This document shows positions 22,155 through 38,032 of a DNA stretch of 64,000 nucleotides, one piece after another. The stretch's first letter is position 1. Each line of letters opens with the position of its first letter. The notes beneath the pieces were generated by a model. It saw only the letters and a list, made by a program, of their open reading frames with translations. It was not told the origin of the DNA and made no database searches. Source of the DNA: an uncultured Candidatus Saccharibacteria bacterium (GTDB lineage: Bacteria > Patescibacteriota > UBA1384 > 2-12-FULL-50-11); assembly GCA_964599405.1 (NCBI GenBank), contig CAZRED010000001.1:149942-213941 (forward strand), given 5' to 3'. Position numbers and translations under genes: made by a program.

Positions 22155-22157
22155 CAG

Positions 22158-23412: not shown

Positions 23413-23416
23413 CTCA

Positions 23417-25384
23417 ATGGATCACCACGGTCATACTAGCGGCCATCATTCGATGGGCGCTGATGATGCTCAAATGTTTTTGCGGCGATTTTGGTACACA
23501 ACATTTCTGCTAGTTCCGCTCCTGTTGGTTAGCAACGTCGGGATAAAGTTTTTTGGTGTGCCGGACTTTGGCGGCCGTGAATTTGTTGGCTTTGCCATTT
23601 CCACGGTAATCTTTTACTTTTCTTGGATATTCTTTGAGCACGCTACCCACGAGATAAAGAGCCGAAGTTACGGGATGATGACACTGGTTTCGGTAGCGGT
23701 GGCCAGCGGCTTTTTGTTTTCAGTGGCTTCCACTTTTATTCCGTCGTTTGGCGGGGTGGAATTTTTCCTGGAAATCTCAACCTTAATCTGGGTACTGCTG
23801 TTTGGCCACTATTTGGAGGCGAAATCAACGGCGACCGCCGGTTCGGCCTTGCAAGAAGTGGCCAAATTACTGCCAAAAGTTGTCCACCTGCTCGACGGCG
23901 AGCAAACCACAGACGTGCCGGTGGAGCAGATTAAAGCTGGTGACATGATTGTGGTTAAGCCAGGCGAAAAGTTACCGGCCGACGGCACAATTTTGGAAGG
24001 GGCGGCCAATATGGACGAAGCGCTAGTAACTGGCGAGTCAAAACCAATCAGTAAAAAAACGGGGGACGCGGTGATTGCCGGATCAATTTGTTTGGACGGT
24101 TCGCTCAAAATCAGAATTGAAAAAACTGGCCTGGATTCGACGGTTGGTCATATTCAACAGCTAGTTGAGCAGGCCCAAACAACCAAGCCACAACTGCAAC
24201 ATATCGCCGACCGGGTGGCCTCGTTGTTGACCTTTGTGGCGCTGGGTACGGCAATTTTGACGGTGCTGATTTGGACGTTGGTGAGTGGCCAGACGTTTGC
24301 ATTTGCCCTGACGATGGCCGTGACGGTGCTGGTGATTGCTTGCCCGCACGCCCTGGGATTAGCAATTCCAACCGTTTCTACTACCGCCACTTCCTTGGCA
24401 CTAAAGCACGGCATTTTCTTAAAATCACTTAAAAAATTAGAGGCGGCCCGAAATATCAGCATCGTTGCCTTCGACAAAACCGGGACACTGACCGAAGGCC
24501 ATCCTGGGGTTACTGATGTGGTGGGCGAGAACCGTGAGGAGGCTTTGCGAGTTGCCGCGGCGTTAGAAGCGGGCTCCAGCCACCCGCTCGCCCAGGCAAT
24601 TATTGCCGAGGCTAAGGGAGCTAAGGCGAAAGTAACCGAATTTAAAAACCTGGCCGGGCGGGGCGTTAGCGGCACAGTTGAAGGCAATAAGTATTGGCTG
24701 GGCAACACAGAGATTCTGGAACAAGTTGATTTGAGCGAACAGAAAAATGATTTCGAGCGATTAAGCGCCGAGGGCAAAACAGTGGTGATACTACGCGATA
24801 AAACCCAGGTGCTTGGTCTAATCGCCGTTGCCGACAAAGTTCGTCCGGAGTCCAAAGAGGCGGTCAAACAACTGCACAACATTGGCGTGAAAGTGGCGAT
24901 GATTACCGGCGATAACGAAGGCGTGGCCAAAACCGTCGCCGGAGAATTGGGAATCGATACGTACTTTGCACAGGTTTTGCCAGAGGACAAATACAAAAAA
25001 ATTAAAGAACTTCAGGACAAGGGCGAGCAAGTGATGATGGTCGGGGACGGGGTCAATGATGCCCCGGCCTTGATTCAGGCAAACGTTGGGGTAGCAATCG
25101 GTGCCGGAACGGATGTGACGGTGGAAGCTGGCGATATTATTTTAACCAAGAACAACCCTGCTGATATCCCCAAGCTATTAATATTAAGTAAAAAAGTTTA
25201 CGGCAAAATGATTCAAAACTTGGTCTGGGCCGTTGGCTACAACGTTATAGCGATCCCCGCTGCCGCTGGGGCGTTTGCGAGCTTCGGTTTATTTTTGCGC
25301 CCGGATGTCGGAGCGTTTCTGATGGCGATGTCGTCGGTGGTGGTGGTAATTAACGCCCTGCAATTAAAGAGAGTGAAATTGTAG
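23417..25384 (+). CDS. copB: P1B-type heavy-metal ATPase, CopB-like (CPH motif, His-rich N-terminus, no HMA domain)
   Basis: N-terminal MDHHGHTSGHHSMG. TM6 CPH (IACPHALG). DKTGTLT phosphorylation site, GDGVNDAP, HP motif. Confidence 0.9.
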   Translation: MDHHGHTSGHHSMGADDAQMFLRRFWYTTFLLVPLLLVSNVGIKFFGVPDFGGREFVGFAISTVIFYFSWIFFEHATHEIKSRSYGMMTLVSVAVASGFLFSVASTFIPSFGGVEFFLEISTLIWVLLFGHYLEAKSTATAGSALQEVAKLLPKVVHLLDGEQTTDVPVEQIKAGDMIVVKPGEKLPADGTILEGAANMDEALVTGESKPISKKTGDAVIAGSICLDGSLKIRIEKTGLDSTVGHIQQLVEQAQTTKPQLQHIADRVASLLTFVALGTAILTVLIWTLVSGQTFAFALTMAVTVLVIACPHALGLAIPTVSTTATSLALKHGIFLKSLKKLEAARNISIVAFDKTGTLTEGHPGVTDVVGENREEALRVAAALEAGSSHPLAQAIIAEAKGAKAKVTEFKNLAGRGVSGTVEGNKYWLGNTEILEQVDLSEQKNDFERLSAEGKTVVILRDKTQVLGLIAVADKVRPESKEAVKQLHNIGVKVAMITGDNEGVAKTVAGELGIDTYFAQVLPEDKYKKIKELQDKGEQVMMVGDGVNDAPALIQANVGVAIGAGTDVTVEAGDIILTKNNPADIPKLLILSKKVYGKMIQNLVWAVGYNVIAIPAAAGAFASFGLFLRPDVGAFLMAMSSVVVVINALQLKRVKL

Positions 25385-25506
25385 GGTTGTTACTTCGTAA
25401 TCAACGCCCTGCAGCTACGTCGGGTAAAGTTATAGCTCTCGGCACGTTAACCAGAATTTAACAACTCCGTGCTATCCTTAATATAATTAAGGAGCCGAAG
25501 ATAACT

Positions 25507-26718
25507 ATGTACCGCCAGCACGAATCACCTAAAAAATTTGATTTTGGAAGGTTGGTAATTGTTGCCATCACGGCAGTCGTAATAATTACCGCCACCCTCA
25601 TTTATCTAACCCGCAAAGAAATTATAAAATTTGGCGAGCTTGGCCCTACCCCTCTAGCCTACAACTCCACCCTTTCCTTACTACCTGGTAGCGGGGTACT
25701 TAACTTGGGCGAGCCCCAACGCATTGCTATTCAGCTAACAACGGGTGGTGATGCGATAAACGCCGTCCAGACCACGGTTGTCTATGACCCCCAAAAAGTA
25801 ACGATTACCGAAATTCTGACAACCGATTCTTTCTGTCAGCTCTTTCCGGTTAAAACTATTAACGCCACAATCGGCGAAGCAACGATCGGCTGTGGCTTAC
25901 CAACCCCCGGGTTTAGCGAGGCTACCGGTACAGTTGCGGTGTTATCGCTGGGCCTGAACCAGGCCGGTACAGTCTCGTTGGGATTGAAAGACAGCTTAGT
26001 TTTAGCCAACGACGGGCTGGGAACAAACGTTTTGCGCTCAACCACTGGCGCTGAGTATCAAGTGACCGACAGCTTACAGACAACGACTGTTTTGGCGCAA
26101 GGATCGGGCATGCTGACTGTCGCACCGATTTTGAGCGTTACTTCGCCAACCCACCCAGATCCTGAACAGTGGTATAAAAGCCGGGACGTGCAGTTTGTCT
26201 GGACAGCCACTAGCGGCTACCAATATGTCTACCACTTTGATCAACTTCCAGCCTTGGTACCGGACAGTTCGTTTATAGCTGCCGTTAGCCCTTTAACTGT
26301 AACCGCCCCCGCTGATGGGGTTTTTTACTTCCATATGGCAACAAAAAAGGCCGGGGTCGTCCAATCAATCTACGACCGACCGGTTAGAGTTGATACCGCC
26401 CCACCGCAAACCGTTAATCTTAGTGCCAGTCAAACCGAGATTAAAGTAGGCGAGATTGTTCAGCTCGTGTCGTCAGGCCAAGACGATACCAGCGGCGTTC
26501 AGTCTGCTTTTTACCTGCGAGAGGGTAGCGGCTCCCCCCTGTTTATCGGTGCTAATCACAGCCATACATTTAGCGACCCGGGAGAACACATTTTAGTACT
26601 GCAAGCGTTCGATAACGCTGGTAATTATAGTGAGGATCAGATTGTGATTAGCGTCACTAGCCCCGGGTTCTTTGCCAAAGTCTGGTCTGGTCTGTTGTCA
26701 CTGGTTGGTCTGCGCTAA
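25507..26718 (+). CDS. Membrane-anchored cohesin-like domain protein
   Basis: N-terminal TM. Residues about 60-190 match the cohesin beta-sandwich pattern (INAVQTTVVYDPQKVTITEI compared with cohesin CDFVYSYDPNVLEIIEI). Confidence 0.5.
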   Translation: MYRQHESPKKFDFGRLVIVAITAVVIITATLIYLTRKEIIKFGELGPTPLAYNSTLSLLPGSGVLNLGEPQRIAIQLTTGGDAINAVQTTVVYDPQKVTITEILTTDSFCQLFPVKTINATIGEATIGCGLPTPGFSEATGTVAVLSLGLNQAGTVSLGLKDSLVLANDGLGTNVLRSTTGAEYQVTDSLQTTTVLAQGSGMLTVAPILSVTSPTHPDPEQWYKSRDVQFVWTATSGYQYVYHFDQLPALVPDSSFIAAVSPLTVTAPADGVFYFHMATKKAGVVQSIYDRPVRVDTAPPQTVNLSASQTEIKVGEIVQLVSSGQDDTSGVQSAFYLREGSGSPLFIGANHSHTFSDPGEHILVLQAFDNAGNYSEDQIVISVTSPGFFAKVWSGLLSLVGLR

Positions 26719-26784
26719 TTGTAATAATTCCTGACAATTACCGGACTTCAAAAGACTTGTAATTAACGTAACAAAATAGTTACT

Positions 26785-27516
26785 ATGGTTATGAACCAAC
26801 AAAAAATACTAATGAAAAACATCACATTTGTTGTACTACTCATCGTGACCGTCGTGGCTTTTGTGCTTATTGCGACAGTTAGTAATCTGGTAGCAACCAC
26901 TGTCCCGGGTTTTCCCAACACTAGCTCCACTTCTGATTTTACCCAGACGATTAACCCCGGCACGTTGACAGTGGATATCGTCGACGGCAGTTACGTGGCA
27001 GTTGGTAGCCCGGCCGTAGCGATGAGCGCGGCAACGTTCGGTTTTACCTGTCAGACCACCACTGGCACCTTCGGAACCGGCACCCAGCAAATTTATGTTA
27101 AAAACCCCGACGCTTCCGACACCGGCTGGTCAACTACATTGGCCGCTTCCGCCCCCACCGCTTTTTGGGACAGTGCCGGTACTGATATGGACTTTAACGA
27201 CCCAACAACTGCTGGCTGTACTGATGGTGCCGACGCCGATAGTTTGAAAGGCCAAATGACGGTTGATCCTTCGGTCGGTACATTGGCCGTTGGGCAGTGC
27301 TTAAGCTGTGTGGTCACCAACGTCACCAAAGGATCGCTGGCGGCATTTAACCAAGCCACTCTCGATAGCATCACTATCTTAAGCGGCGCTGCAGGGTCGG
27401 ATGATATCGGCGACTGGAAATTAACCGGTGTATCGATTAGCCAAAAGATCCCGGGCGAACAGCCAGCGGCCAGCGACTACACCATTCCTCTGACACTTTC
27501 GATTGTGGCCATCTAA
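26785..27516 (+). CDS. Small secreted protein with a C-terminal WxL-like module (paralog A)
   Basis: N-terminal TM/signal, then a roughly 170-aa module shared with 27503-28228 and with the C-terminus of the 1914-aa protein. Trp-x-Leu motifs GDWKLTGVS and GWSTTL. Confidence 0.6.
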   Translation: MVMNQQKILMKNITFVVLLIVTVVAFVLIATVSNLVATTVPGFPNTSSTSDFTQTINPGTLTVDIVDGSYVAVGSPAVAMSAATFGFTCQTTTGTFGTGTQQIYVKNPDASDTGWSTTLAASAPTAFWDSAGTDMDFNDPTTAGCTDGADADSLKGQMTVDPSVGTLAVGQCLSCVVTNVTKGSLAAFNQATLDSITILSGAAGSDDIGDWKLTGVSISQKIPGEQPAASDYTIPLTLSIVAI

Positions 27517-28210
27517 AGTTTGGGGGATTATCAAAAACAATACATTCCTCCTCGTCATCATCTCCATTGTCGTGCTGTCGATACCGTTTATTGTTAATGC
27601 CTTAATTACCAACGAAGCCCCACGATTACCAAACACCGCCGACGTTAACTTCACCCATACCATCAACCCCGGCACGTTGACGGTGGATGTTGTGGATGCT
27701 AGTTATGTCGTCGTCGGCAGTCCATCGGTGGCAATAAGCGCCTCAACCTTTGGTTTTACCTGTCAGAGTGCAACTGGGCTTTTTGGTACGGCCACCCAGC
27801 AAATCTACGTCAGAAATCCCGACGCGGCCGATAACGGTTGGGTAACGAGTTTGGCCGCTTCCGTCCCCACCGCTTTTTGGGACAGTGCCGGGACCGATTT
27901 AGACTTCAACGATCCGACGACTGCTGGCTGTACTGACGGCGCTGATACCGATACCTTGAAGGGTCAGATGTCGGTTAACCCAACCGTGGGGACATTGGCC
28001 ATCGGGCAGTGCGCCAGCTGTACTACTACCAACGTCACTAAGGGCTCCTCATCGGCCTACAACGAAGGGACGGTAGACAGCATTACCATTTTGAGCGGCG
28101 CCGCGGGGTCAGATGACATCGGCGACTGGAAATTAACCGGTGTGTCTGTTAGTCAAACTATTCCCGCCGAACAGCCAGCGGCCAGTGATTACAATATCAA
28201 CCTAACTCTT
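26940..28210 (+). repeat. Tandem gene duplication (two roughly 560-bp near-identical coding repeats)
   Basis: 26940-27500 and 27650-28210 encode near-identical modules (TINPGTLTVD...LTLSIVA). Confidence 0.7.
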
Positions 28211-28228
28211 AGTATTGTTGCCAGCTAA
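27503..28228 (+). CDS. Small secreted protein with a C-terminal WxL-like module (paralog B, tandem duplicate)
   Basis: About 80% identical to paralog A over the module. 14-nt overlap with the upstream gene. Confidence 0.6.
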   Translation: MWPSKVWGIIKNNTFLLVIISIVVLSIPFIVNALITNEAPRLPNTADVNFTHTINPGTLTVDVVDASYVVVGSPSVAISASTFGFTCQSATGLFGTATQQIYVRNPDAADNGWVTSLAASVPTAFWDSAGTDLDFNDPTTAGCTDGADTDTLKGQMSVNPTVGTLAIGQCASCTTTNVTKGSSSAYNEGTVDSITILSGAAGSDDIGDWKLTGVSVSQTIPAEQPAASDYNINLTLSIVAS

Positions 28229-28269
28229 CAATAATTAGAGAATAATAATTATATAAAACAGAGGGGATT

Positions 28270-29271
28270 ATGAAAAAACTACATCTAAAAAAACTCTTAT
28301 TGGCAACCAACCTAATGACTGTGCTGTCGTTATTGTCGCCCAACTTTGCCCAGGCAATTGAGTATGGTGGCGTTGGTGGAAAACCGGCCAATCCGATTGC
28401 CGGCAACTCTCGAACCGAGTCAATATTTATCCACACCCTTGAGCCGGGAGCAACCCAAGAAGACGGGGTGCTGGTGGTAAATAATAGCCCCGAGACTAAA
28501 ACCCTGTTGGTCTATGCAGCCGACTCCACTCCTTCCACCGATGGCGCTTTCGCCTGTAAGCAACTAACCGAAGAGAAGACCGACGTCGGTGCTTGGATTA
28601 CCTTAAAAAAGTCAGAGGTAACACTGGAATCCGGTACCAAAGAAACCGTTCCCTTCACCATTCGCACTCCTCTAACCGCCAGCGTTGGCGAACATAACGG
28701 CTGTATCCTGATTCAGGAAAAGAAAGCCGCCGTTGAAGGCCAAACCGGCGCGGCCATATCGATGCGGACCGGTCTGCGCGTCGCTATTACTATTCCTGGA
28801 GATATCCTTAGAAAACTGGAAATTGGCGCCCTGACAGTGGCACCAACAGACGCTGGATTTTCCCTTACCCCCACAGTTAAAAACATTGGTAACGTCTCAA
28901 TTGACGCAAACGTTCGGGTAATAACACGCAATTTCATTGGGATGACGCATTTCACGAACGGCGGAGAGTTTCCGATTCTCCGAGGCGATACCTCACAGTG
29001 GAATTTCGATTTGAAAAGACCGTTTTGGGGCGGTTTTTACCGTTCCACCCCCGGCGTTGAGTACGACGAAAATCCAGAAGCGGGCGTTGGACTAAAAAGC
29101 GGCAAGGCGCTGACTAATTTAACTGGAGCCACCGTTTGGTTCTTTAGTTTCCCAACGCTACCGGCCTTACTAATCGAAATCTTGGTACTACTGTTTATTT
29201 TCCTTGGCTTACCGTTGATCATTCGCCAGATCCGCAAAAATCGCTCAGTGCCTTCAGTGCCGCTAGCTTAG
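28270..29271 (+). CDS. Signal-peptide protein with a C-terminal TM anchor and short basic tail (DUF916/CscA-like architecture)
   Basis: 333 aa. Lipobox-less signal peptide. C-terminal helix FPTLPALLIEILVLLFIFLGLPLII is followed by RQIRKNR. Confidence 0.45.
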   Translation: MKKLHLKKLLLATNLMTVLSLLSPNFAQAIEYGGVGGKPANPIAGNSRTESIFIHTLEPGATQEDGVLVVNNSPETKTLLVYAADSTPSTDGAFACKQLTEEKTDVGAWITLKKSEVTLESGTKETVPFTIRTPLTASVGEHNGCILIQEKKAAVEGQTGAAISMRTGLRVAITIPGDILRKLEIGALTVAPTDAGFSLTPTVKNIGNVSIDANVRVITRNFIGMTHFTNGGEFPILRGDTSQWNFDLKRPFWGGFYRSTPGVEYDENPEAGVGLKSGKALTNLTGATVWFFSFPTLPALLIEILVLLFIFLGLPLIIRQIRKNRSVPSVPLA

Positions 29272-29308
29272 GCCAGCTTGTGCTGGTGGTGGGGCTTTTG
29301 GATAAAGG

Positions 29309-32300
29309 ATGACTAAGCTCCAAATACAACTCCTGCTTGTGATTGGTCTATTGGCGTTGATTGTCAGTGGTTCCTTGGCGTTACGTAAACCGCCCTCAGT
29401 AACTCCGCCCGAAGCTACCTACCGCTACCGCCCACTATCAGAGCTGAAGCTCAATACCACGAATCGGGACAAGTATTTCGTTGGCCAGCACGAAGTGGTT
29501 CCGACGACGGAGCCAATCACGGCGGCTGTGCCACCACTGGCGCACCAAGCTCGGCTCTCTTTGAACAGCGCTCACCCCGGTCTACCAAATACTGGTGCCG
29601 GCGATTTTGATACCTCGATTAAAGCCACTGGCACGGGTTCGATTGCCGAAGCGGTACCGAAAAGCTCCCAGGCCAAAGCGGGTCTGTATCAGCTGAAAGT
29701 AACCGACGGGGTCACTGGGCAGGTAGTTTCTGACCAGACCGTTGCCTGGGGCGTATTAGTTTTTAACTCCGATTACGCCGCCTATCCAATCAACACCAAA
29801 GCCAGACTAGCGATGGCGGTTTTGGACGACCGTGGCAAGATGATCTGTGACGCCGAGCTGACGCTGGCGATCACTGAGCCCAACGGCCGAACTATTACAT
29901 TAAGCACGGCTAATAACCAAATTCTCGTTAATGAGGCCTGTTTTGTCTACGGATTGACCGAAGAGCCAGACTACGTGGCCGAATATTTACCAACCCAAGC
30001 TGGTAACTATCAGGTTGCCTTAACCGCTCGGATCGGTAACGGCGTTAGAGTGCTACACGATCAATTCTCCGTGGTCGAAAACGCCCCGTTCTATCTGCAA
30101 AGGGTTGGTGCTTCCCGAACCTATCCGGCCGCTAGCTATCCCTACACCTTTAACTTTCAACCCACCCAAAGCGGTCGTTACCAATTAACCGAAAACGTGC
30201 CGGGCAGTTTCGAAATACTCGACCTGACGATTGACGGCAACCCCTGCCCGACGGAAAGCTTACTGAACGCCGGAGCTTGCAAGATTGAGGTCTCTGAGGA
30301 CGGCAATGAGAAGCAATTAATCTGGCGGGTCGACGCCCGAGCCAATCGTGATATAAAGATCGCCTATACATTTAAGGGGCCTAGTATTTCGCCGTATTTA
30401 TTCCGGCTTGGACCGGCCGAAATCACCTCACCCGACGACTCAATTTGGACGGAGACACGTTCTTGGCTAATTGCCTCCGATGCCGCTTGCCAATCGAACG
30501 GCACTGGCGGCGGCAACTCCAACGCATCTGGCTCTTGGCAGACCTGCGGTGGGACGACCCCGCAGGCCGCTGACTCAATTACCATTCTGAGCGGCGACAC
30601 CATTACTATGAACGCCGCCTTGAGCGTCACCAGCATTGTTATCAACAACGGCGGCATTTTTACCAACAACGCCAGCCCCTTCACCTTAACGCTCACCGGT
30701 ACCACTGGCACCCTCTTCACCTTGGGCGCAACCGGTACCTTCACGCCCGGCACTTCGATTAGCGTCACGATGAACCCAAATGCTTCAATTACCACTACCT
30801 CCGGTACCATTACTTTTTTTGACTTAAACTTTACGCCGACAATCTCTGCCAGCAACAAAACCTATACGATGGGTTCCGGCGCTCTGACCATTAACGGCAA
30901 CTGGGCTATTACCGGTACGGCCGCGAGTAACGCCTTAACCTTAACGGTTAATATGAGTGCCAACGTGACGGTGGCTTCGACAAAAACCACGACGATTGGC
31001 CCGGCGTCGTTAACTAACAGAGCCACTTTGGACGTACAGCCCTCACTGGCCAGCTACAACCTAACGACCGGTACCCTGGCTATCACCGCCCTAGGTACGC
31101 TAAACGCCGCCAATGCCACCTCGGCGATTACGGTTGCCAACAGCTACAGCAATAGCGGCATTTTCACCGCCGGTTCTAGCACGGTTAGCTTCACCGCTAC
31201 TGCCACTGGTAAAACTTTGAGCGGTACACTATCCGGCGCTAACGGTAAATTCTTCAACGTCATTTTCAACGGCGTCGGCGGTGCCTGGGCATTCGGTGCT
31301 GCCGTCGAAGTAGCTAACGACTTTACCGTTACAAATGGGGCCGTCACTGCTAGTAACAATAATCTCTCCGTCACTCGTGACTTTACACTGGCTTATACCG
31401 CCGGTGTTTCTTACGTGGCTGGATCGTCAACCGTTACCGTCGCCAGACACTTCAATGACCCTGGCGTCAAATACGTTTCTAACACTTCCGAGCTGGCTCT
31501 GGACGGCACGGGCACTTTAACCACCGCTACAACTGCTTCCCTTTACGATGTATCGCTTGGCCAATCCGGCAACACAACAACACTGGCAATGGCCGGAGCG
31601 ATCGACAACTTTAACTACTACGCTAGCGACACAGATCATTTCCGGGTCCTGCTCTTCGACGGGAGTGTTGTCAAATACAAAAGCGCCGAGATAACCCCGC
31701 CCGGCACCGGTGTCAGAAGCTATACTCCGCCATCCCCTGTCCCCTACAAAGCTGGCTGGAGTATCGGTATCTATACCGTCGGTAATGGCGTCATTCCCTA
31801 CACCGGTAGCGGCGGCACACACTACTACCAAGCCAATAACTCTGGCCAACCAAACGAGGAAGCTACGATTTCCTGGCAAGGAACAACAGTCCGAACCTAT
31901 TCGATTAACGGCGAGGTCAACGGCGTCCGGGTAATCGGCAATGACGCTATCAGCCGGCCTTCGCTCGACTCATTCACTAATACCTCCCTGAAAGACACCA
32001 ATAACAACGCTACGGGGGTGGCGGAAGGATTATTAACTGTGACCAACGGCGCTACCTTGAACGGCGGTACGGTTACCGGCACTGATACCGGACTATTTCT
32101 ACCGTGTAGCACAACTTGTTCCGGCCACCTGGTCTTTAACTCACCGACCACCTTGAGCGGCTCCGGCGACAACCGGGTAGTTTACTCAACCGGCAACTCA
32201 ATAACCTATACCGTTACTGGGGGAACCTACGGCAGTTGGAATATTGCAATGGAGACAACCACCCTGTCCGATACGCCGATAACGTTCGAGCTTGGGGGAA

Positions 32301-35053
32301 ATATTATCACCGACGGGTTTGTCGCCCTTCAAGGGTCGCCCCTGGGTGGGAGCAATAGCTTCAACACCGCCGGTTTCAATATGACCGCACTGCGTTTTGA
32401 CGCTGGCAGCGAAAACCAGACCGGTAGTTGGGTCGTTAATCTTGGCGCCTCAACAATTACCCTGGACTCGACTAGCGACTCCTTTGGCGTAGCCAGCAAC
32501 GGCGGCTCCCATACCTTCAACCTCTCTACTTCCTCTGTCTCCACGACTGGGGATATCCGGTTTATTAACGGTACCGGTACAGTCGCCGCGTCTGGCAGTA
32601 CTTCCACGATTACGATGACACCAGCCGCTTCGACCACCCGGACTTTCACCACTAACGCCCAAACGATTGATAACTTTGTCGTTAACGGCGGTAACGGTGC
32701 CGCCACTGTCAACCTGGACGGCAATTTAATTGCCTCTGACAACTTAACGATTACCGCTGGTACTTTGGACGTTACGGCAACGCCGTACAGCGTCACAATC
32801 GGCGGCAACTACTCTAACTCCGGCAGCTTTACTCCCCGGTTGGGTACTGTGACTTTTAATGCTACCGACGCGGGTAATACTCTGGCGGGCACGATGACCG
32901 GTGCGTCAGCCTTTTATAATCTCGTTTTCGACGGCGTTGCTGGCGGCTGGAGCTTTAGCGCCGCGGTGACGGCAACGAACGACTTTACCGTTACCAACGG
33001 GGACGTTACCGCCAATAACAATAACTTGACTGTTACCAGGGACTTTACGCTAACTAACGTGGTGGGCGTTTCCTACACGGCCGGCTCCTCCACCATCACC
33101 GTTAGCCGCGACTACAATAACCCCGGCGACCGGTTTGTTCGTGGCACATCATTAGTTATCCTTGACGGCACCGGCAACGTTAATACCACTGGCGGTAAAT
33201 TTAATAACCTTTCTCTGGCTTACACCTCACAAGTCTCAACCTTCAATACCACCAACTTCGCGGTTTACGGCGTTCTCACCTTTAACGGCGGTACCGCCAA
33301 CGGGAGTGTTGACGGTTACGTTTCGCTGGAGCGATCTGCTAGCGCTACCCCAATTGTGTTCGCATCAGCCACCACCCTCTCCGGCACTAGTAGGACGCTT
33401 TTTCATAACAACAACGCCAATAGCCTGACTACCACCATCGCTGGTGGTAACTACGGGACGTGGAATATTATTTTGTTTACTACCCTTGGGCCTGCCACCA
33501 GTAGTATCTACCAGTTAGCCGGTAATATTACTAACACTGGTTACGTTACCCTCCAGGCCGTTGGGGGATCGACGGGCAACGTTTTTAACACCCAAAACTT
33601 CAACATTACATCGCTACGGTTTGACCTCGGCACCCAGTCCCGAACCGGACCGTGGACTGTCAATTTTGGGTCTTCGACGCTGACCCTTTCTGATACTGCT
33701 GATTCGTTTGGCGTTGCTAGTAACGGCGGCTCTCATACCTTCAACCTTTCAACCGCCGCCATCAACACCGTTGGGAACGTGCTGTTTGCCAACGGCACCG
33801 GCACCGTGTCCGTGAGTCAGGGCACCTCGACCGTGACTTGGGCGCACCCAACTGGTACCAAAACTTACGCCCCCAACAGCCAATCTCTGCACAATCTCAC
33901 GCTCAACAGCGCCGCTGGTACCCTTCAACCCAATGGTGCCGTTATTGCTACCGGCAACTTTATTATCACCGCCGGCAGCTACGACACCGTTGCTGGCCAA
34001 GACTACGCCTTAACGATCGGCGGCAACTACACCAACTCCGGCACATTTAATGCGCAGGGTGGAACGGTTACCCTAAACGGCTCCGCTACCCAAACGCTTT
34101 CTGGCACGATGGTCGGCGGTAGCGCATTCAATAACTTAACGATTACCAATAATTCTGGCACATCGGCTAGCGACTGTGAGCGAACAAGTTTTGTCCCATC
34201 AGTGGACTTTAATGCCGCTGCTTGGACAAGCGGTAACTACACCATCACTACGGCCAATGTTCGGGTCGAGTACAACTCCGGCTCTACCTACGCCTTCACC
34301 AACATCAATTGGAACGGTCAGACGATTGGGACACAGATTTACTTCCGCAACTCGGTCGCCAGCGACACCTGGCTGTTGGATGTTTCGGGAACGCAGACAG
34401 CTGTCTCCTACGTTAACGTCTCCCGGTCTAACGCCGCTAGTGGCCTTCAGATTGTTGCTAGCGACGGTACCAACACTGACTGCAACAACAATAGTAACTG
34501 GCTTTTCGTTTCTGGTGCCTTATCGACCGATATCGTTAACGCTGGCGGCACTCCAATTGATTCACCATCTATCGCCATGGGTGCAGCCACATTCTCCCTT
34601 TTATATCAAACAGTTAGCGGTATCTTTGGCGCCACTGATGAAAAAGTCAGAGTTAGTAACACCACCGTTAACCCCCAATGGAGCTTGACGATTGCCGCCA
34701 GTAGCGGTCCGACTGGGCTCTGGTCGGCTGGGACACCGAAGTATGACTTTAACGACCCAACTGGGAGTGCAGGAGACGGCGGCGATGGCGACGCTTACGG
34801 GGGACAGCTGACAATGGATGTGACTGGTGGAACCCTTGGTGGAACCTGCTCGACGACCGGAATAACTAAAGGATCATCTGCTGGTTTTTCTGAAGGAGTG
34901 GTCAACTCAATCACCCTGCTCACGGCCAGTGGCACGGCCGACGTTAGTTGCTATTGGGATTTAACCGGCGTGGACGTACTTCAAACCCTACCTTCCGAGC
35001 AAGCAACTAGCAGCTACTCCATCAATATGACTCTCACTATTACCGCCAATTAA
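29309..35053 (+). CDS. Giant (1914 aa) repeat-rich surface protein ending in the WxL-like module
   Basis: Signal/TM at the N-terminus. Long Thr/Gly/Asn-rich beta-solenoid-like repeats with two roughly 400-aa internal duplications. The last roughly 170 aa are homologous to the two small paralogs (YWDLTGVDV, QWSLTIAAS). Confidence 0.7.
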   Translation: MTKLQIQLLLVIGLLALIVSGSLALRKPPSVTPPEATYRYRPLSELKLNTTNRDKYFVGQHEVVPTTEPITAAVPPLAHQARLSLNSAHPGLPNTGAGDFDTSIKATGTGSIAEAVPKSSQAKAGLYQLKVTDGVTGQVVSDQTVAWGVLVFNSDYAAYPINTKARLAMAVLDDRGKMICDAELTLAITEPNGRTITLSTANNQILVNEACFVYGLTEEPDYVAEYLPTQAGNYQVALTARIGNGVRVLHDQFSVVENAPFYLQRVGASRTYPAASYPYTFNFQPTQSGRYQLTENVPGSFEILDLTIDGNPCPTESLLNAGACKIEVSEDGNEKQLIWRVDARANRDIKIAYTFKGPSISPYLFRLGPAEITSPDDSIWTETRSWLIASDAACQSNGTGGGNSNASGSWQTCGGTTPQAADSITILSGDTITMNAALSVTSIVINNGGIFTNNASPFTLTLTGTTGTLFTLGATGTFTPGTSISVTMNPNASITTTSGTITFFDLNFTPTISASNKTYTMGSGALTINGNWAITGTAASNALTLTVNMSANVTVASTKTTTIGPASLTNRATLDVQPSLASYNLTTGTLAITALGTLNAANATSAITVANSYSNSGIFTAGSSTVSFTATATGKTLSGTLSGANGKFFNVIFNGVGGAWAFGAAVEVANDFTVTNGAVTASNNNLSVTRDFTLAYTAGVSYVAGSSTVTVARHFNDPGVKYVSNTSELALDGTGTLTTATTASLYDVSLGQSGNTTTLAMAGAIDNFNYYASDTDHFRVLLFDGSVVKYKSAEITPPGTGVRSYTPPSPVPYKAGWSIGIYTVGNGVIPYTGSGGTHYYQANNSGQPNEEATISWQGTTVRTYSINGEVNGVRVIGNDAISRPSLDSFTNTSLKDTNNNATGVAEGLLTVTNGATLNGGTVTGTDTGLFLPCSTTCSGHLVFNSPTTLSGSGDNRVVYSTGNSITYTVTGGTYGSWNIAMETTTLSDTPITFELGGNIITDGFVALQGSPLGGSNSFNTAGFNMTALRFDAGSENQTGSWVVNLGASTITLDSTSDSFGVASNGGSHTFNLSTSSVSTTGDIRFINGTGTVAASGSTSTITMTPAASTTRTFTTNAQTIDNFVVNGGNGAATVNLDGNLIASDNLTITAGTLDVTATPYSVTIGGNYSNSGSFTPRLGTVTFNATDAGNTLAGTMTGASAFYNLVFDGVAGGWSFSAAVTATNDFTVTNGDVTANNNNLTVTRDFTLTNVVGVSYTAGSSTITVSRDYNNPGDRFVRGTSLVILDGTGNVNTTGGKFNNLSLAYTSQVSTFNTTNFAVYGVLTFNGGTANGSVDGYVSLERSASATPIVFASATTLSGTSRTLFHNNNANSLTTTIAGGNYGTWNIILFTTLGPATSSIYQLAGNITNTGYVTLQAVGGSTGNVFNTQNFNITSLRFDLGTQSRTGPWTVNFGSSTLTLSDTADSFGVASNGGSHTFNLSTAAINTVGNVLFANGTGTVSVSQGTSTVTWAHPTGTKTYAPNSQSLHNLTLNSAAGTLQPNGAVIATGNFIITAGSYDTVAGQDYALTIGGNYTNSGTFNAQGGTVTLNGSATQTLSGTMVGGSAFNNLTITNNSGTSASDCERTSFVPSVDFNAAAWTSGNYTITTANVRVEYNSGSTYAFTNINWNGQTIGTQIYFRNSVASDTWLLDVSGTQTAVSYVNVSRSNAASGLQIVASDGTNTDCNNNSNWLFVSGALSTDIVNAGGTPIDSPSIAMGAATFSLLYQTVSGIFGATDEKVRVSNTTVNPQWSLTIAASSGPTGLWSAGTPKYDFNDPTGSAGDGGDGDAYGGQLTMDVTGGTLGGTCSTTGITKGSSAGFSEGVVNSITLLTASGTADVSCYWDLTGVDVLQTLPSEQATSSYSINMTLTITAN

Positions 35054-35081
35054 CAGACTTTCCTCTCCATTAATTTACGTA

Positions 35082-36089
35082 GTGAGTTTGTTTCGTTATC
35101 CTAATATTGGTAGGGGTGTAATCGATTCCATGAGAACTGGCCGTTTTAAACTGTTTGCTTTGATACTAGGTCTGACCATAGTAGCGTTTGGGAGTGGCAT
35201 AAAAACCGTCGCCGCCCAAGACAGTCCCAGCGTCTTATATGTCCCCTTAATCGGCCTAACATCGGTACCAGATCCGTTGGCACTACCGGATGGGGCGGGT
35301 GATGTAACGTATCATTACGCAGTTAAAAACTTTCTTAGCGAGGCGGCTTTAACTAACGTCCAAGTCGTCGACGACAACTGTGCCTCCGTTAAATTTATCG
35401 AAGGCGACGATAATAACGACTCCGAGCTTGATTACGACGAAACCTGGCGCTACACCTGTACCACTAAAGTTTCCGTCACCACTCAAAGTACGGCCACGGC
35501 CACCGGTACTGCCAATAATTTAACCGCGACTCACAAAGCCTACGTTACCGTTATTGTTGGTCTAAGTGACCCAGCCCCACTTGTTAGTATTGTTAACATC
35601 ACCAAAGTTGCCTATCCATTGTCCCTACCGGCCGAAGGAGGCGACATTACCTTTATCTATAAGGTTAACAATCCAGGCGTCGTGTCATTAAGTGATGTCA
35701 CTGTCGTTGATGATAGGTGTGGGGCGATGTCCGGCAAACTCGGGGACAGGAACGGCAACGGCCTGCTGGATACCAATGAGGTTTGGATTTACACCTGTAC
35801 AATGACTCTGAGAGAGACTACTACCAATACCGCCACCGTTACCGCTTTTGCTAATGGATTAATGGCCACGAATAACTTTTCCCTGACCGTCAAGGTTGAC
35901 ACCCTAGTCGATCAGGCGCTCATCAAACTTCCCGATACCGGCAAAGATGCGCTATTAAAAATTATGGTTTGGGAAATCTTATTAGGTATATTGGTAACTC
36001 TACTCACCATATCTATTGTTTTAAACCGAAAGAATCGACTGCGAAGCGTTGAAATTACACAAAATATCTTAGACGGGGGAAGAAAGTAA
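35082..36089 (+). CDS. LPXTG-anchored surface protein with two tandem roughly 110-aa repeats
   Basis: C-terminal LPDTG, hydrophobic helix, then NRKNRLRS. Repeats contain VVDDNC...WRYTCT and VVDDRC...WIYTCT. The likely start is the internal Met at 35130. Confidence 0.65.
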   Translation: MSLFRYPNIGRGVIDSMRTGRFKLFALILGLTIVAFGSGIKTVAAQDSPSVLYVPLIGLTSVPDPLALPDGAGDVTYHYAVKNFLSEAALTNVQVVDDNCASVKFIEGDDNNDSELDYDETWRYTCTTKVSVTTQSTATATGTANNLTATHKAYVTVIVGLSDPAPLVSIVNITKVAYPLSLPAEGGDITFIYKVNNPGVVSLSDVTVVDDRCGAMSGKLGDRNGNGLLDTNEVWIYTCTMTLRETTTNTATVTAFANGLMATNNFSLTVKVDTLVDQALIKLPDTGKDALLKIMVWEILLGILVTLLTISIVLNRKNRLRSVEITQNILDGGRK

Positions 36090-36132
36090 CCATGAATTGT
36101 TTAGAGGACTAAATGAATAGTTTGTTACACAA

Positions 36133-37044
36133 ATGAAAAGACCAAAATTAGTATTAATAATTATTGTGCTGGTTGTTGTAGCCGCGTTGGGGGCCGGAGT
36201 TTATTTCAAGCTGATTCCCCGTCTGTTCCAAAAACCCGTCGCCACAGTAGTCGATCAGCTATTCGGTTGGAAGTTTCCAATTACCAAATTCCCACTGGTT
36301 GGGCCGGATGGCCAACTGGCGTACTCCAACATCCGTGATCCTGGCGGTATACCACAAGGGCTACCAGTTCGCCTGAAAGTTCCCGTTATCGGCGTCGATT
36401 CAGCTATTGAAGACGCGCTGATTACCCCGGACGGAAGAATGGACGTGCCAATCGGCTCGGTTAATGTTGCCTGGTTTTCTCTTGGCCCTCATCCCGGCGA
36501 CGAAGGAAGCGCGGTGATCGGTGGGCATTTTGGGATTAGAGACGGGGTGCCGTTCGTCTTCTACAACTTAGACAAGCTAAAGGTTGGCGACAAGGTATAT
36601 GTGGTCGACGACAAAGACCAGACATTGGCTTTCCAGGTCAGGGAAATTAAATTATTCGATCGAAACGCTGATGCAACGACGGTTTTTACCTCCGATGACG
36701 GGTTGGCTCATCTTAACCTGATTACTTGCGAAGGCATTTGGAACCAAGTTGACGGTTCGTATCCCGAGCGGCGAGTAGTGTTTACCGATGCCATACCATC
36801 AGAAGGGGCAGTAACCGTTACTCCTAAGTCTCCAACGGCGGCGATTCCCACGCCAAACCCAACACCAACTCCGACACCAACTCCGACAACAGAAAATACA
36901 GTATCTACAGCTGCCTTGCTTCAGAGCGTGAATCGGGCAATAAAAAGTGCGGCCAGTACGCCAATCGACGCACTAATCACTTTCACCCTACTAGCTTCGA
37001 TAGCGTATATGGCCACCAAAATCGTCAGGCTCCGCAGAGCATAG
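36133..37044 (+). CDS. Sortase family transpeptidase
   Basis: N-terminal TM. Catalytic His in GGHFG, TLxTC-type motif LNLITCEG, Arg in RRVVFTD. Pro/Thr-rich linker and C-terminal TM. Confidence 0.75.
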   Translation: MKRPKLVLIIIVLVVVAALGAGVYFKLIPRLFQKPVATVVDQLFGWKFPITKFPLVGPDGQLAYSNIRDPGGIPQGLPVRLKVPVIGVDSAIEDALITPDGRMDVPIGSVNVAWFSLGPHPGDEGSAVIGGHFGIRDGVPFVFYNLDKLKVGDKVYVVDDKDQTLAFQVREIKLFDRNADATTVFTSDDGLAHLNLITCEGIWNQVDGSYPERRVVFTDAIPSEGAVTVTPKSPTAAIPTPNPTPTPTPTPTTENTVSTAALLQSVNRAIKSAASTPIDALITFTLLASIAYMATKIVRLRRA

Positions 37045-37060: not shown

Positions 37061-38032
37061 CTATTTAGTTGTTAAATTCCACAGAAACTCAATTGCTCGA
37101 TTCTCTGCCCAGTGATGGTCGGGGTCGCCGTTTTTGGACTGACTAATAAATCCACCGTGGCCACCGCCATTGGTGATGATTAACTGGACGTTCGGGTTGT
37201 TGTCTACCCCATCAAACGAGCGGGCGGGGATTACCACATCGTCAGCGCTCTGAATAATCAGGGTGGGAACGGCAATGTTTGGCAAAAACGGCCGGGCGCT
37301 GGCCTTGGCGTGATAGTCGCCGGCATCAATAAAACCGTTATGGGGAGCACAGAACCGATCGTAATCCCCCAGTGTTTTAATGTGCTTAATGGCCTGGATA
37401 TCGTACCTTCCCGGAAAAAGACGGCTCCGAGTGCGCAGCGACGACATCTGCCAATACAACATCAGCCAACGATAGATGGCCGGGGCCTTGTTATCGACAG
37501 AATCAACAGCGGCGGCTAGGTCAATTAGCGGTGAAATTCCGACTGCTCCAATTAGTTGCTTCGGAGCGTCCTGGCCCCATTCGCCAACCGCTTTTAGGCA
37601 GGCGTTGCCGCCGTAGGAAAAACCCATCAGCCCAATTTTCGGCAGTGAATCTTCCCTAATTAACTCTTCAATCACTATGCGCAGATCGGCACTCTGGCCG
37701 GCGTGAGAGAGGGTTTTACTGTATTTCTCACTGCCGCCGCCGTTGCGTAAATTAACCCTGACCACGTTGAAACCGCGGGTGTAGGCTTTGGCGGTGGTGC
37801 CTCGAACGTATGGGCTGATAGTCGAACCATTGAGCCCGGCAATGATAACTAAAGTGGGGGAGGTAGTTTTATCAGCCTGCCAAGAGCATTCCCCAACTAG
37901 TTGAGAGCCATCGGGCAGTTGAAAACGGCGATCTTTCGACGGAAAAAACCTAATTGGCCTGGGCATCAGCACGCTGCCGATTGTTTGGAGATGCGGGCTT
38001 TTTAACCATTTGGCTACGACAAAATTATTCAT
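37061..38032 (-). CDS. Alpha/beta-hydrolase (YheT/ABHD-type)
   Basis: Nucleophile elbow GFSYGGN. Asp and His positions are consistent with the fold. Confidence 0.65.
   Translation of the reverse strand: MNNFVVAKWLKSPHLQTIGSVLMPRPIRFFPSKDRRFQLPDGSQLVGECSWQADKTTSPTLVIIAGLNGSTISPYVRGTTAKAYTRGFNVVRVNLRNGGGSEKYSKTLSHAGQSADLRIVIEELIREDSLPKIGLMGFSYGGNACLKAVGEWGQDAPKQLIGAVGISPLIDLAAAVDSVDNKAPAIYRWLMLYWQMSSLRTRSRLFPGRYDIQAIKHIKTLGDYDRFCAPHNGFIDAGDYHAKASARPFLPNIAVPTLIIQSADDVVIPARSFDGVDNNPNVQLIITNGGGHGGFISQSKNGDPDHHWAENRAIEFLWNLTTK

What the first reader, a model, noticed from the sequence alone, without database searches (positions are those of the whole stretch)
25507..37044. Cell-surface-complex gene cluster with Csc/WxL-like architecture plus cohesin, LPXTG protein and dedicated sortase
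Seven consecutive same-strand genes encode, in order, a membrane-anchored cohesin-like protein, two tandem small secreted paralogs, a signal-peptide protein with a C-terminal TM anchor (DUF916/CscA-like layout), a 1914-aa repeat protein, an LPXTG-anchored protein and a sortase. The two small proteins and the giant protein end in the same roughly 170-aa module, which carries two Trp-x-Leu motifs (GWSTTL/QWSLTI and DWKLTGV/YWDLTGV). This recalls the WxL peptidoglycan-binding domain and the cscA-cscB-cscC-cscD organisation described in Lactobacillales. Here the cluster is also wired to a cohesin and a sortase. If the module is a genuinely divergent WxL, or a new non-covalent wall-binding domain, this would be an undescribed surface-assembly system.
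Basis: partly seen in the sequence, partly recalled or inferred. Interest (0 to 1): 0.85.

Follow-up and report, generated by a model that had tools for sequence, protein, structure and literature searches.

The report
Divergent WxL-type surface cluster in Patescibacteria
This operon from an ultrasmall Patescibacteria (CPR) bacterium looks like a very divergent, so far unannotated relative of the WxL/Csc cell-surface clusters of lactic acid bacteria, and the same core is conserved across this largely uncultivated group, where it probably anchors large adhesins to the cell surface.

Summary
Seven tightly spaced same-strand genes lie at 25507-37044. Two 71%-identical small proteins and the 1914-aa protein share a C-terminal ~185-aa module (41% identity, E 7e-30).

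Gene 4 is a true WxLIP (DUF916-DUF3324-TM) homologue: Pfam PF06030 scores above its cut-off, and hhalign against six Firmicute WxLIPs gives 97% probability, E 2e-11, full length.

The order small protein, WxLIP, large protein with C-terminal module recurs in 73-79 of 79 related loci, almost all titled as Patescibacteria or other CPR lineages. The cohesin call also holds at family level: 11 of 20 homologues hit PF00963.

The LPXTG protein and sortase form a separately conserved pair, found next to module genes only here. However, in this clade all three module proteins carry [LF]PNT[GSA] exactly where relatives have the signal-peptidase site.

Verdict: a new, CPR-wide variant of a known kind. 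WxL-domain membership is probable, not proven.

The parts
25458..25487 (+). Best sigma-70-like promoter match (11/12), in the 122-bp gap upstream of gene 1. Possible operon promoter.
   Evidence: The total number of promoter-like sites in the region is not above the shuffled expectation, so this is only a positional hint.
25507..26718 (+). g1: 403-aa protein with an N-terminal TM anchor (residues 16-34), a cohesin-family domain (about 50-190) and a PKD domain (303-375).
   Evidence: PKD hit E 8e-6. TM peak. 11 of 20 aligned homologues hit Pfam Cohesin PF00963, best E 1.8e-7. The family is present in 26 of 80 loci, usually downstream of the large gene.
26785..27516 (+). g2: small module-only protein (243 aa), consisting of an N-terminal TM/signal anchor, FPNT|S, and a ~195-aa module.
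   Evidence: AF2 model pLDDT 88.4, all-beta after helix 7-37. 762 homologues, named ones all CPR.
26911..26925 (+). FPNTS in g2 (residues 43-47). A sortase-type motif in the exact register of the signal-peptidase site of its relatives.
27503..28228 (+). g3: second small module-only paralogue (241 aa, TTG start), 71% identical to g2.
27626..27640 (+). LPNTA in g3 (residues 42-46).
28270..29271 (+). g4: WxLIP homologue with signal peptide (..AQA|IEYGG), DUF916-like and DUF3324-like Ig domains, and a C-terminal TM (300-318). It lacks the LysM tail of most CPR relatives.
   Evidence: PF06030 31.5 bits against cut-off 27.3. hhalign of 52 CPR homologues against 6 Firmicute WxLIPs: Prob 97.3%, E 2.2e-11, 310 columns. 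Adjacent to the small gene in 73/79 loci. LysM is present in 108 of 120 homologues but not in this one.
29309..35053 (+). g5: 1914-aa large module protein, consisting of an N-terminal TM, LPNTG at 92-96, a duplicated repeat-rich region and the C-terminal module.
   Evidence: Orthologue L114 keeps LPNTG at the same place. Large proteins in other loci have variable N-terminal domains, including a ConA-like lectin.
29582..29596 (+). LPNTG in the N-terminal region of g5.
34514..35050 (+). C-terminal ~180-aa module of g5 (residues 1736-1914), containing QWSL and YWDL.
   Evidence: In the exhaustive search the module sits at the extreme C-terminus of the large hits listed.
35082..36089 (+). g6: secreted protein with two DUF7507 domains and a C-terminal LPDTG (nt 35928-35942), TM and RKNR sorting signal. 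The likely true start is the ATG at 35130.
   Evidence: Forms a conserved pair with g7 in 16 of 24 metagenome loci.
36133..37044 (+). g7: sortase. Its best NCBIfam match is class F, below that model's cut-off. It has an N-terminal TM, and FPITK-FPLVG at residues 48-57.
   Evidence: Pfam Sortase E 1.6e-17. NCBIfam class F 101 bits against cut-off 166. LITC, GGH and ERR motifs are visible in the sequence. Homologues carry FPxTG at about residues 46-80.

Best explanation
The core of the locus (g2, g3, g4, g5, with g1 as a frequent accessory) is the Patescibacterial counterpart of the Firmicute WxL/Csc surface cluster.

Shown:
- g4 is a homologue of the WxL-interacting protein (DUF916-DUF3324-TM).
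- The two small proteins are little more than one ~185-aa beta-sandwich module.
- The giant protein ends in that same module.
- This triad is syntenic across the CPR loci examined.

Inferred:
- All of these proteins are exported by Sec.
- The membrane-anchored WxLIP captures the module non-covalently, probably by beta-strand complementation as AlphaFold2 predicts for Firmicute WxLIP-WxL pairs. The small modules help form the platform.
- The platform holds the giant, repeat-rich, lineage-variable adhesin on the cell surface of an episymbiotic bacterium.
- The TM-anchored cohesin protein g1 adds a second docking site. In other CPR loci it co-occurs with a dockerin protein that is absent here.
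- g6 and g7 are a self-contained sortase/substrate pair that merely abuts the cluster. In this clade, however, a sortase probably also matures the three module proteins, because their signal-peptidase site is replaced by [LF]PNT|[GSA].
For: WxLIP homology:
- Pfam PF06030 above its gathering score.
- hhalign Prob 97.3%, E 2.2e-11, full length including the TM helix.
- Some CPR homologues are already named DUF916 by NCBI.

Synteny and family shape:
- Small gene then WxLIP in 73/79 loci, module-bearing proteins in 79/79, and 192 module ORFs in 80 loci.
- The module is C-terminal in the large representatives listed.
- The large proteins have variable N-terminal domains, including a ConA-like lectin as in CscC (PMC1534035).

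Module against WxL:
- Same size, same position, and the same small-plus-large architecture (PMC9772566).
- WxL is the best hhalign partner in both directions among 6-7 families (5-6 distinct control results, because the g6 control duplicated the g4 output): P 0.015 and 0.006 against 0.12 or more.
- The local hhalign score of 22.2 exceeds all 60 column permutations, which averaged 12.3 +/- 1.9.
- AF2 models of g2 (pLDDT 88.4) and of genuine WxL P0121 (pLDDT 88.2) have collinear strand orders. By eye, conserved residues sit at matching places: G-x-L-x-[IV]-D, G-W, L-x-G, G-[TD]-W, [IV]-P and Y.

Cohesin: 11/20 g1 homologues hit PF00963. The dockerin family occurs in 33/80 loci.

N-terminal motif:
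- 14/14 motif-bearing homologues place LPxT at positions -4 to -1 of the conserved mature N-terminus.
- 93/95 of the other homologues have Ala at -1, and 91/95 have V, A or I at -3.
- The motif is conserved in paralogues and orthologues.
Against: - Pfam WxL (PF13731) hits none of 78 small or 52 large-type CPR modules at E<=10.
- Exhaustive HMMER with the CPR profile finds only 681 representatives, too few to include the Firmicute WxL family; the listed 150 are all strong matches to the CPR module.
- hhalign probabilities are 1-6%. Global alignment is not better than permuted controls.
- Two incompatible registers are obtained for the second motif.
- The D-x-R-G signature before motif 1 is replaced by N-P-D-A-x-D-x-G.
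- No 3D superposition of the two models could be made, because the AFDB library was unavailable.
- Strand complementation, peptidoglycan binding and sortase cleavage are all inferred, not shown.
- g6 and g7 are not adjacent to module genes in any of the other loci examined.
Confidence: 0.7

Rival explanations
1. Pilus-like fibre. The very conserved small protein is the major subunit of a donor-strand-complemented surface fibre. Its conserved N-terminal peptide (S-x-T-S-N-F-T-Q-T-I-N) would insert into the next subunit. WxLIP would be the membrane-proximal anchor or terminator, and the large module proteins would be tip adhesins.
For: - A genuine WxL model gives a largely overlapping neighbour list.
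- The N-terminal 15 residues of the mature protein are at least 90% conserved, yet are modelled as coil.
- There are 2-3 tandem copies of the small gene.
- Identity is 60-75% across distant CPR lineages.
- AF2 is reported to predict that a WxLIP hairpin fills a gap in the WxL sandwich (PMC10599100).
Against: - No chaperone or usher equivalent is present.
- No multimer prediction or image is available.
- Firmicute WxL proteins have been described as peptidoglycan-bound platforms, not fibres (PMC9772566).
Confidence: 0.15
2. Integrated sortase system. All seven genes would form one machine in which g7 covalently processes or anchors the module proteins together with g6, which would act as a CscD equivalent.
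For: - The genes are operon-like: same strand with 28-66 bp gaps.
- g2, g3 and g5 carry [LF]PNT[GSA], of the same type as the LPDTG of g6.
- The motif sits exactly at the processing register.
- The window's clade has also lost the LysM tail of WxLIP.
- A Firmicute WxL cluster with an adjacent class A sortase exists in E. gilvus pCR1A.
- Small LPXTG proteins are common in Firmicute clusters.
Against: - g6 homologues occur in 0/79 and g7 homologues in 1/79 module loci.
- The g6-g7 pair is conserved on its own in 16 of 24 sortase loci without module genes. This includes L090, which is otherwise similar to the window.
- g6 (335 aa, two DUF7507 domains) is unlike CscD, which is 90-140 aa.
- A second sortase in the window (41302-41922) could equally be the enzyme involved.
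- Contigs of the motif-bearing relatives are too short to test co-occurrence.
Confidence: 0.2
3. The module is not a WxL homologue. It would be an unrelated beta-sandwich that was independently recruited as the partner of a DUF916-type protein, so the similarity in architecture would be convergence.
For: - No HMM-level similarity.
- hhalign probabilities of 1-6% with conflicting registers.
- The D-x-R-G signature is missing.
- The small and large CPR modules are the same length and 41% identical, whereas Firmicute WxL1 and WxL2 differ in length and topology (PMC9772566, PMC1534035).
- There is a CPR-specific ~30-residue acidic, Cys-containing insertion.
Against: - Independent recruitment would have to reproduce the size, the C-terminal position, the small-plus-large duality, two conserved Trp strands, collinear strand order and the same partner gene.
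- WxL is the best profile match among the control families tried.
- The structural neighbours overlap, 28 of 60.
Confidence: 0.2
4. Cellulosome-like polysaccharide-utilisation complex. The cohesin and dockerin proteins and the lectin-bearing large proteins would assemble enzymes for carbohydrate capture, as originally proposed for L. plantarum csc clusters.
For: - Cohesin family.
- Dockerin plus Big_6 family in 33/80 loci.
- ConA-like lectin and SdiA-regulated/phytase-like domains in one large protein.
- The original Csc hypothesis (PMC1534035).
Against: - No glycoside hydrolase or other catalytic domain was found in the window's cluster or in the six large proteins scanned.
- The window lacks the dockerin partner.
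Confidence: 0.08

Closest known systems
WxL / Csc cell-surface clusters of Lactobacillales and Bacillales (cscA-D: WxLIP plus small and large WxL proteins)
   Same: - One DUF916-DUF3324-TM protein, one or more ~240-aa proteins that are essentially one module, and a large protein with variable adhesin or lectin domains ending in the same module. All have export signals and sit in one operon.
- The module is 160-190 aa, C-terminal, has two conserved Trp-containing strands, and is all-beta.
   Different: - Found here in Patescibacteria rather than Firmicutes, where 91% of known WxL sequences lie (PMC9772566).
- The module is invisible to PF13731 and lacks D-x-R-G.
- It carries a ~30-aa acidic, Cys-containing insertion.
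- The small and large versions are the same subtype.
- WxLIP usually carries a LysM domain after the TM helix.
- Frequent cohesin and dockerin companions.
- No small CscD-type LPXTG protein in the 79 genome-derived CPR loci.
Enterococcus gilvus pCR1A WxL cluster with an adjacent class A sortase (locus L083)
   Same: A WxL cluster directly followed by a sortase gene.
   Different: The module proteins there have ordinary signal peptides. The sortase class differs. In CPR the adjacency was seen only in the window.
Donor-strand-complemented fibres (chaperone-usher pilins such as CsuA/B and FimG, archaeal cannulae CanA/CanX, TasA-like fibres)
   Different: No significant sequence similarity. There is no chaperone or usher. 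Polymerisation is not shown.
Cohesin-dockerin scaffolds (cellulosome-type)
   Same: The g1 family has a Pfam-detectable cohesin domain. A dockerin type I protein is a frequent neighbour in other CPR loci.
   Different: No enzymes are attached. The window has the cohesin but no dockerin protein.
Canonical C-terminal LPXTG sorting signals and their housekeeping or accessory sortases
   Same: g6 and the ice-binding-like protein have LPDTG, a TM segment and a basic tail, each next to a sortase gene.
   Different: In g2, g3 and g5 the same motif type lies at the N-terminal end, after the TM helix. Cleavage there would release the mature protein rather than anchor it. A text search found no description of this arrangement.

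Membership tests
WxLIP (DUF916/PF06030 + DUF3324/PF11797 + C-terminal TM) | Match to the DUF916 (PGBD) model | tested here: met
   PF06030 31.5 bits against cut-off 27.3, E 2e-7, residues 48-149.
WxLIP (DUF916/PF06030 + DUF3324/PF11797 + C-terminal TM) | Full-length architecture: signal peptide, two Ig-like domains, C-terminal TM helix | tested here: met
   hhalign of the CPR family against 6 annotated 'DUF916 and DUF3324' proteins: Prob 97.3%, E 2.2e-11, 310 aligned columns from the signal peptide to the TM helix. TM at 300-318. PF11797 itself was not hit directly.
WxL domain (PF13731) | Significant match to the family HMM | tested here: not met
   0 of 78 small and 0 of 52 large-type CPR modules at E<=10. 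As a positive control, all 120 Firmicute proteins retrieved carry PF13731.
WxL domain (PF13731) | Profile-profile similarity to genuine WxL domains | tested here: inconclusive
   hhalign P 0.0033-0.09 across runs, probability 1-6%. WxL is the best of 6-7 families in both directions. The score is above column permutations only in local mode. Two different registers are obtained.
WxL domain (PF13731) | 160-190 aa domain at the C-terminus with two conserved Trp-x-Leu motifs | tested here: met
   ~185 aa and C-terminal. W115 and W211 are invariant and L213 is at least 90% conserved. Motif 1 is W-x-L in large-type modules and W-x-V/T in small ones. Which CPR strand equals canonical motif 2 is unresolved.
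WxL domain (PF13731) | Asp-x-Arg-Gly signature preceding motif 1 | tested here: not met
   CPR consensus is V-K-N-P-D-A-A-D-x-G-W. Firmicute consensus is V-T-D-x-R-G-T-x-x-G-W.
WxL domain (PF13731) | Same fold as WxL models | tested here: inconclusive
WxL domain (PF13731) | Binds peptidoglycan | not testable with these tools
   Needs a binding assay with purified module.
WxL cluster (Hassan, Chaudhuri & Williamson 2023 definition: at least 1 WxLIP and at least 2 WxL proteins within four genes) | Gene content and spacing | tested here: met
   One WxLIP homologue flanked by three module-bearing genes with no intervening genes. This is conditional on accepting the module as WxL. The triad is conserved in 73/79 loci.
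CscD (small LPXTG protein of csc clusters) | 90-140 aa secreted protein with a C-terminal LPXTG anchor, part of the cluster | tested here: not met
   g6 is 335 aa with two DUF7507 domains. Its homologues are absent from 79 CPR module loci, and no other LPXTG ORF sits in those clusters.
Sortase (PF04203) | Sortase domain with His, Cys (TLxTC-like) and Arg | tested here: met
   PF04203 E 1.6e-17. GGHFG, LITCEG and ERRVV are visible in the sequence.
Class F sortase (NF033748) | Score above the NCBIfam cut-off | tested here: not met
   Best model, but 101 bits against cut-off 166.
Cohesin (PF00963) | Match to the cohesin HMM | tested here: inconclusive
   g1 itself has no hit at E<=1. 11 of 20 aligned homologues hit at E<=0.01, best E 1.8e-7. 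The two examples seen individually score 20.5-21.7 bits against cut-off 24.1.
Donor-strand-complemented pilins | Incomplete Ig fold completed by a strand from another subunit, with polymer formation | not testable with these tools
   Only weak fold resemblance.

The most novel reading that the evidence does not exclude
Two linked readings remain open.

(1) The CPR small module protein, and by extension WxL proteins generally, is a subunit of a donor-strand-complemented surface fibre or platform. It would be anchored by WxLIP and tipped by giant adhesins. That would be a pan-Patescibacteria host-attachment organelle hidden among 'hypothetical proteins'.

(2) In the window's clade a sortase has taken over from signal peptidase I as the maturation protease. 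It would cut [LF]P[NDE]T|[GSA] placed after an N-terminal TM anchor, or after a PG_binding_1 domain, and release the mature protein as the leaving group. That would be a natural 'reverse' use of a sortase signal.
Probability: 0.15. Interest if true: 0.85.

Novelty: new variant of a known kind. Interest (0 to 1): 0.6.

Why it matters
WxL clusters have been treated as a speciality of Lactobacillales and Bacillales and linked to gut colonisation and virulence. Finding the same WxLIP plus small and large module organisation conserved across Saccharibacteria, Microgenomates, Parcubacteria-type lineages, Peregrinibacteria and Gracilibacteria has three consequences:
- It pushes the system's range to a deeply separate, mostly uncultivated radiation.
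- It gives names and a testable role (surface display of variable adhesins on episymbionts) to proteins currently labelled 'hypothetical'. These are 681 representative clusters at 50% identity.
- It offers very divergent sequences that can help define what is essential in the WxL fold.

The small subunit and WxLIP are unusually conserved, at 55-75% identity between CPR lineages. This suggests a constrained assembly that deserves structural work.

The N-terminal sortase-type motif in exact register with the signal-peptidase site is a clean hypothesis about a new sortase function, and it can be tested by mass spectrometry.

Tried and rejected
- Looking up the window's own contig by exact protein failed.
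- Rebuilding WxL sequences from the OCR text of Siezen et al. supplement 7 was abandoned, because the text is garbled.
- Accession NC_005707 (pBc10987) is not in the plasmid collection.
- A profile search of PDB sequences found nothing.
- A first permutation script timed out.
- Block-shuffle controls keep the motif intact, so they are not a valid null for the local score. The global hhalign score was not above the permuted controls.
- In one search the g6 control row duplicated the g4 output, which is a likely run failure, so that control is not counted.
- hmmsearch with a 10-sequence WxL HMM ranked CPR modules near the top. Scores were 10 bits or less and partly came from the signal peptide, so this was not used as evidence.
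- Contigs of the motif-bearing relatives are too short to test linkage with sortase.
- The exhaustive HMMER job lists only the best 150 hits, so the weak tail of 76 hits between E 1e-10 and 1e-3 could not be inspected for bridging sequences.
- Literature searches for WxL or DUF916 in CPR, and for N-terminal sortase motifs, found nothing relevant. This shows absence from that library only.

Full report
**1. What is in the sequence**

Seven ORFs lie on the + strand between 25507 and 37044. Gaps between them are 28-66 bp, and g2 and g3 overlap by 14 nt. The next gene, at 37061-38032, is on the other strand. The best promoter-like match of the region (11/12) sits in the 122-bp gap upstream of g1.

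Hydropathy shows N-terminal hydrophobic segments in g1, g2, g3, g5 and g7, and C-terminal ones in g4 and g6.

The two small proteins are 71% identical. Residues 59-242 of g2 align with residues 1736-1913 of the 1914-aa protein at 41% identity, E 7e-30. The giant protein has a large internal duplication: 606-739 against 1161-1293 at 57% identity, and 916-1200 against 1324-1605 at 44-51%.

g6 ends in LPDTG, a TM segment and RKNR. g7 is a sortase: Pfam E 1.6e-17, with NCBIfam class F as the best model at 101 bits against a cut-off of 166.

**2. The DUF916-like gene is a true WxLIP homologue**

g4 matches PF06030 (WxLIP_PGBD/DUF916) at 31.5 bits against a gathering score of 27.3.

To test this independently I retrieved genuine Firmicute clusters from plasmids: Listeria, B. 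tropicus, E. faecium, E. gilvus, E. faecalis and Melissococcus. I aligned six annotated 'DUF916 and DUF3324' proteins against 52 non-redundant CPR homologues of g4. hhalign gave Prob 97.3%, E 2.2e-11 over 310 columns, from the signal peptide through both Ig-like domains to the C-terminal TM helix.

NCBI already names some CPR homologues 'DUF916 domain-containing' and most of them 'LysM peptidoglycan-binding domain-containing'.

**3. The cluster is conserved, in Patescibacteria**

The small protein has 762 homologues at 60-90% identity. None has a Pfam domain apart from a few with PG_binding_1. Every hit that carries an organism name is labelled as a CPR lineage.

A scan of one genome per species returned 79 loci. 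Their titles name Saccharibacteria, Levybacteria, Peregrinibacteria, Gracilibacteria, Doudnabacteria, Kerfeldbacteria, Falkowbacteria, Dojkabacteria, Andersenbacteria, Colwellbacteria and others. A minority of the MAG records carry non-CPR titles, such as Gammaproteobacteria, which I take to be mislabelled bins.

In 73 of the 79 loci a g4 homologue follows the small gene. All 79 have module-bearing ORFs, typically one to three small ones and one large one of 340-2200 aa.

Exhaustive HMMER over 1.84 billion representatives finds 681 family members, and in the large ones listed the module is at the extreme C-terminus. The N-terminal parts of the large proteins vary. They include a ConA-like lectin, DUF2341, DUF7483 and an SdiA-regulated/phytase-like domain. 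This echoes the lectin domains of CscC (PMC1534035).

This is exactly the published definition of a WxL cluster: at least one WxLIP plus a small and a large WxL protein (PMC9772566, PMC10599100).

**4. Is the module a WxL domain?**

Evidence against, at the sequence level:
- PF13731 hits none of the 78 small and 52 large-type modules, even at E<=10. All 120 Firmicute proteins I retrieved carry it.
- The CPR profile does not reach WxL proteins in the exhaustive search.

Profile-profile comparison is weak but points the right way:
- WxL is the best partner among 6-7 families in both directions, P 0.015 and 0.006 against 0.12 or more. One control, g6, duplicated the g4 output and is not counted.
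- The local score of 22.2 exceeds all 60 column permutations, which averaged 12.3 +/- 1.9. The global score does not.

Structure:
- The AF2 model of g2 (pLDDT 88.4) and the AF2 model of a genuine WxL protein (P0121, pLDDT 88.2) have collinear strand orders.
- Read by eye, conserved residues sit at equivalent places: GPLSIDY/GTLTVDI, NFVQVTD/QIYVKN, G-W-T-L-Q-V/G-W-S-T-T-L, L-x-G-A-E-V-T/L-K-G-Q-M-T-V, G-T-W(Y)/G-D-W, L-S-V-P/Q-K-I-P, and Y..TFTWVL/Y..PLTLSI.
- The CPR module has a ~30-residue insertion (DFNDP..GCTDGADAD) with invariant Cys residues.

The register of the second motif is unresolved. The D-x-R-G signature is absent.

I could not superpose the two models. I conclude that the module is probably a divergent WxL, at about 0.75, but this is not proven.

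**5. Accessory genes**

g1 hits only PKD by itself. Its family, however, is present in 26 of 80 loci, usually downstream of the large gene, and hits Pfam Cohesin in 11 of 20 members, best E 1.8e-7. A dockerin type I plus Big_6 protein is a neighbour in 33 of 80 loci but is absent from the window.

g6 and g7 behave differently. g6 homologues are in 0 of 79 module loci and g7 homologues in 1 of 79. In 24 metagenome loci anchored on g7 homologues, the g6-g7 pair recurs in 16 and is never accompanied by module genes. One of these is L090, which shares the window's ice-binding-like/second-sortase pair.

So the pair is an independent sortase/substrate unit that happens to abut the cluster here. A sortase next to a WxL cluster is not unprecedented: E. 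gilvus pCR1A has one.

**6. An unexpected link to sortase**

In the whole window the pattern [LF]PxT[GSA] occurs in only six ORFs of at least 90 aa:
- g2 (FPNTS at 43), g3 (LPNTA at 42) and g5 (LPNTG at 92), all shortly after the N-terminal TM helix.
- g6 and the ice-binding-like protein, both as canonical C-terminal LPDTG.
- One other ORF.

Among 109 scorable homologues of the small protein, 95 have a textbook signal-peptidase I site: V, A or I at -3 in 91, and Ala at -1 in 93, directly before the conserved mature N-terminus S-x-T-S-N-F-T-Q-T-I-N. The other 14, which are the window's closest relatives, have [LF]P[NDE]T occupying exactly positions -4 to -1.

All paralogues in three such contigs carry the motif. 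So does the giant orthologue L114. The nearest giants outside the clade have ordinary signal peptides.

Two relatives have a signal peptide, a PG_binding_1 domain, FP[ED]T|[AG] and then the module. WxLIPs of this clade lack the LysM tail that 108 of 120 homologues carry.

The simplest reading is that a sortase, rather than signal peptidase, releases the mature module protein in this clade. This is inference only. Text searches found no description of such an arrangement.

**7. Mechanism**

What is shown: homology of g4 to WxLIP, the shared C-terminal module, conserved synteny, and export and anchor signals.

What is inferred, by analogy with Firmicute clusters and the published AF2 prediction that a WxLIP hairpin completes the WxL sandwich (PMC10599100):
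- The membrane-anchored WxLIP captures the modules of the small and large proteins.
- This displays a variable giant adhesin on the surface of an episymbiont.
- The cohesin protein provides a second docking point.

**8. Novelty and verdict**

I found no paper that links WxL or DUF916 with CPR. The published distribution is 91% Firmicutes (PMC9772566).

The finding is a new, very divergent and CPR-wide variant of a known kind of surface cluster. It is not a categorically new system. The 'wiring' to g6 and g7 is largely a juxtaposition.

Interest is moderate to high (0.6). It rests on the phylogenetic reach, the unusual conservation of the small subunit and WxLIP, and the testable N-terminal sortase-motif hypothesis.

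Noticed in passing
window 40312-41922: A second sortase/substrate pair. An ice-binding-like (PF11999) secreted protein with C-terminal LPDTG, TM and RRKQR (40312-41253) is followed by a 206-aa sortase (41302-41922). The same pair occurs in the related metagenome locus L090 at 18797-20490.
   Followed up: partly
window 36274-36303 (g7 residues 48-57); L091-L113: Sortases of the g7 type carry a sortase-like motif, FP[SLVP]TG, at about residues 46-80 between their N-terminal TM helix and the catalytic domain. This is seen in 13 of the 24 loci. The window's copy reads FPITK-FPLVG. It may be a pseudo-substrate or a self-processing site.
   Followed up: partly
P0259, P0286, P0334 (homologues of window 28270-29271): 108 of the 120 best CPR WxLIP homologues have a LysM domain C-terminal to the TM helix and its KRKRW stop-transfer sequence. 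This predicts a cytoplasmic LysM, which is odd for a peptidoglycan-binding domain. The window's clade lacks it.
   Followed up: partly
P0008, P0012 (homologues of window 26785-27516): Variant small proteins with the layout signal peptide, PG_binding_1 (PF01471), G-[VI]-P-G-F-P-[ED]-T|[AG], module. Here the sortase-like motif separates a wall-binding domain from the module.
   Followed up: partly
L004:8715-10151, L005:5026-6111 and 31 other loci: A Big_6 plus dockerin type I protein is a conserved neighbour, 3-8 kb downstream of WxLIP, in 33 of 80 loci. It is usually followed by one or two cohesin-family genes. The window has the cohesin gene upstream instead and no dockerin gene.
   Followed up: partly
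L010:11913-12896 and 14 other loci: A Beta-lactamase2 (PF13354) family gene sits between the WxLIP gene and the large module gene in 15 CPR loci.
   Followed up: no
L017, L025, L034, L061 (Kerfeldbacteria and relatives): A second, more divergent pair of small module protein and WxLIP (E about 1e-33 and 1e-40 to g2 and g4) lies directly upstream of the standard pair. This indicates duplication of the two-gene unit.
   Followed up: no
window 19851-25384: Upstream of the cluster are a DUF305 protein (19851-20450), an ion-transport channel (21507-22154) and a P-type (E1-E2) ATPase (23417-25384). This may be a metal or ion homeostasis group, unrelated to the finding.
   Followed up: no
window 10171-10243, 13134-13206, 19438-19509, 57922-58008: Four tRNA genes are the only Rfam matches in the window at gathering score.
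   Followed up: no
window residues 122-153 of g2 (nt 27148-27243): The CPR-specific insertion FWDSAGTDxDFNDPTxxGCTDGADADS has invariant D136, F137, N138, D139, C145, D147 and D152. Together with invariant C89, C172 and C175, it looks like a Ca2+-binding, disulfide-stabilised loop.
   Followed up: no
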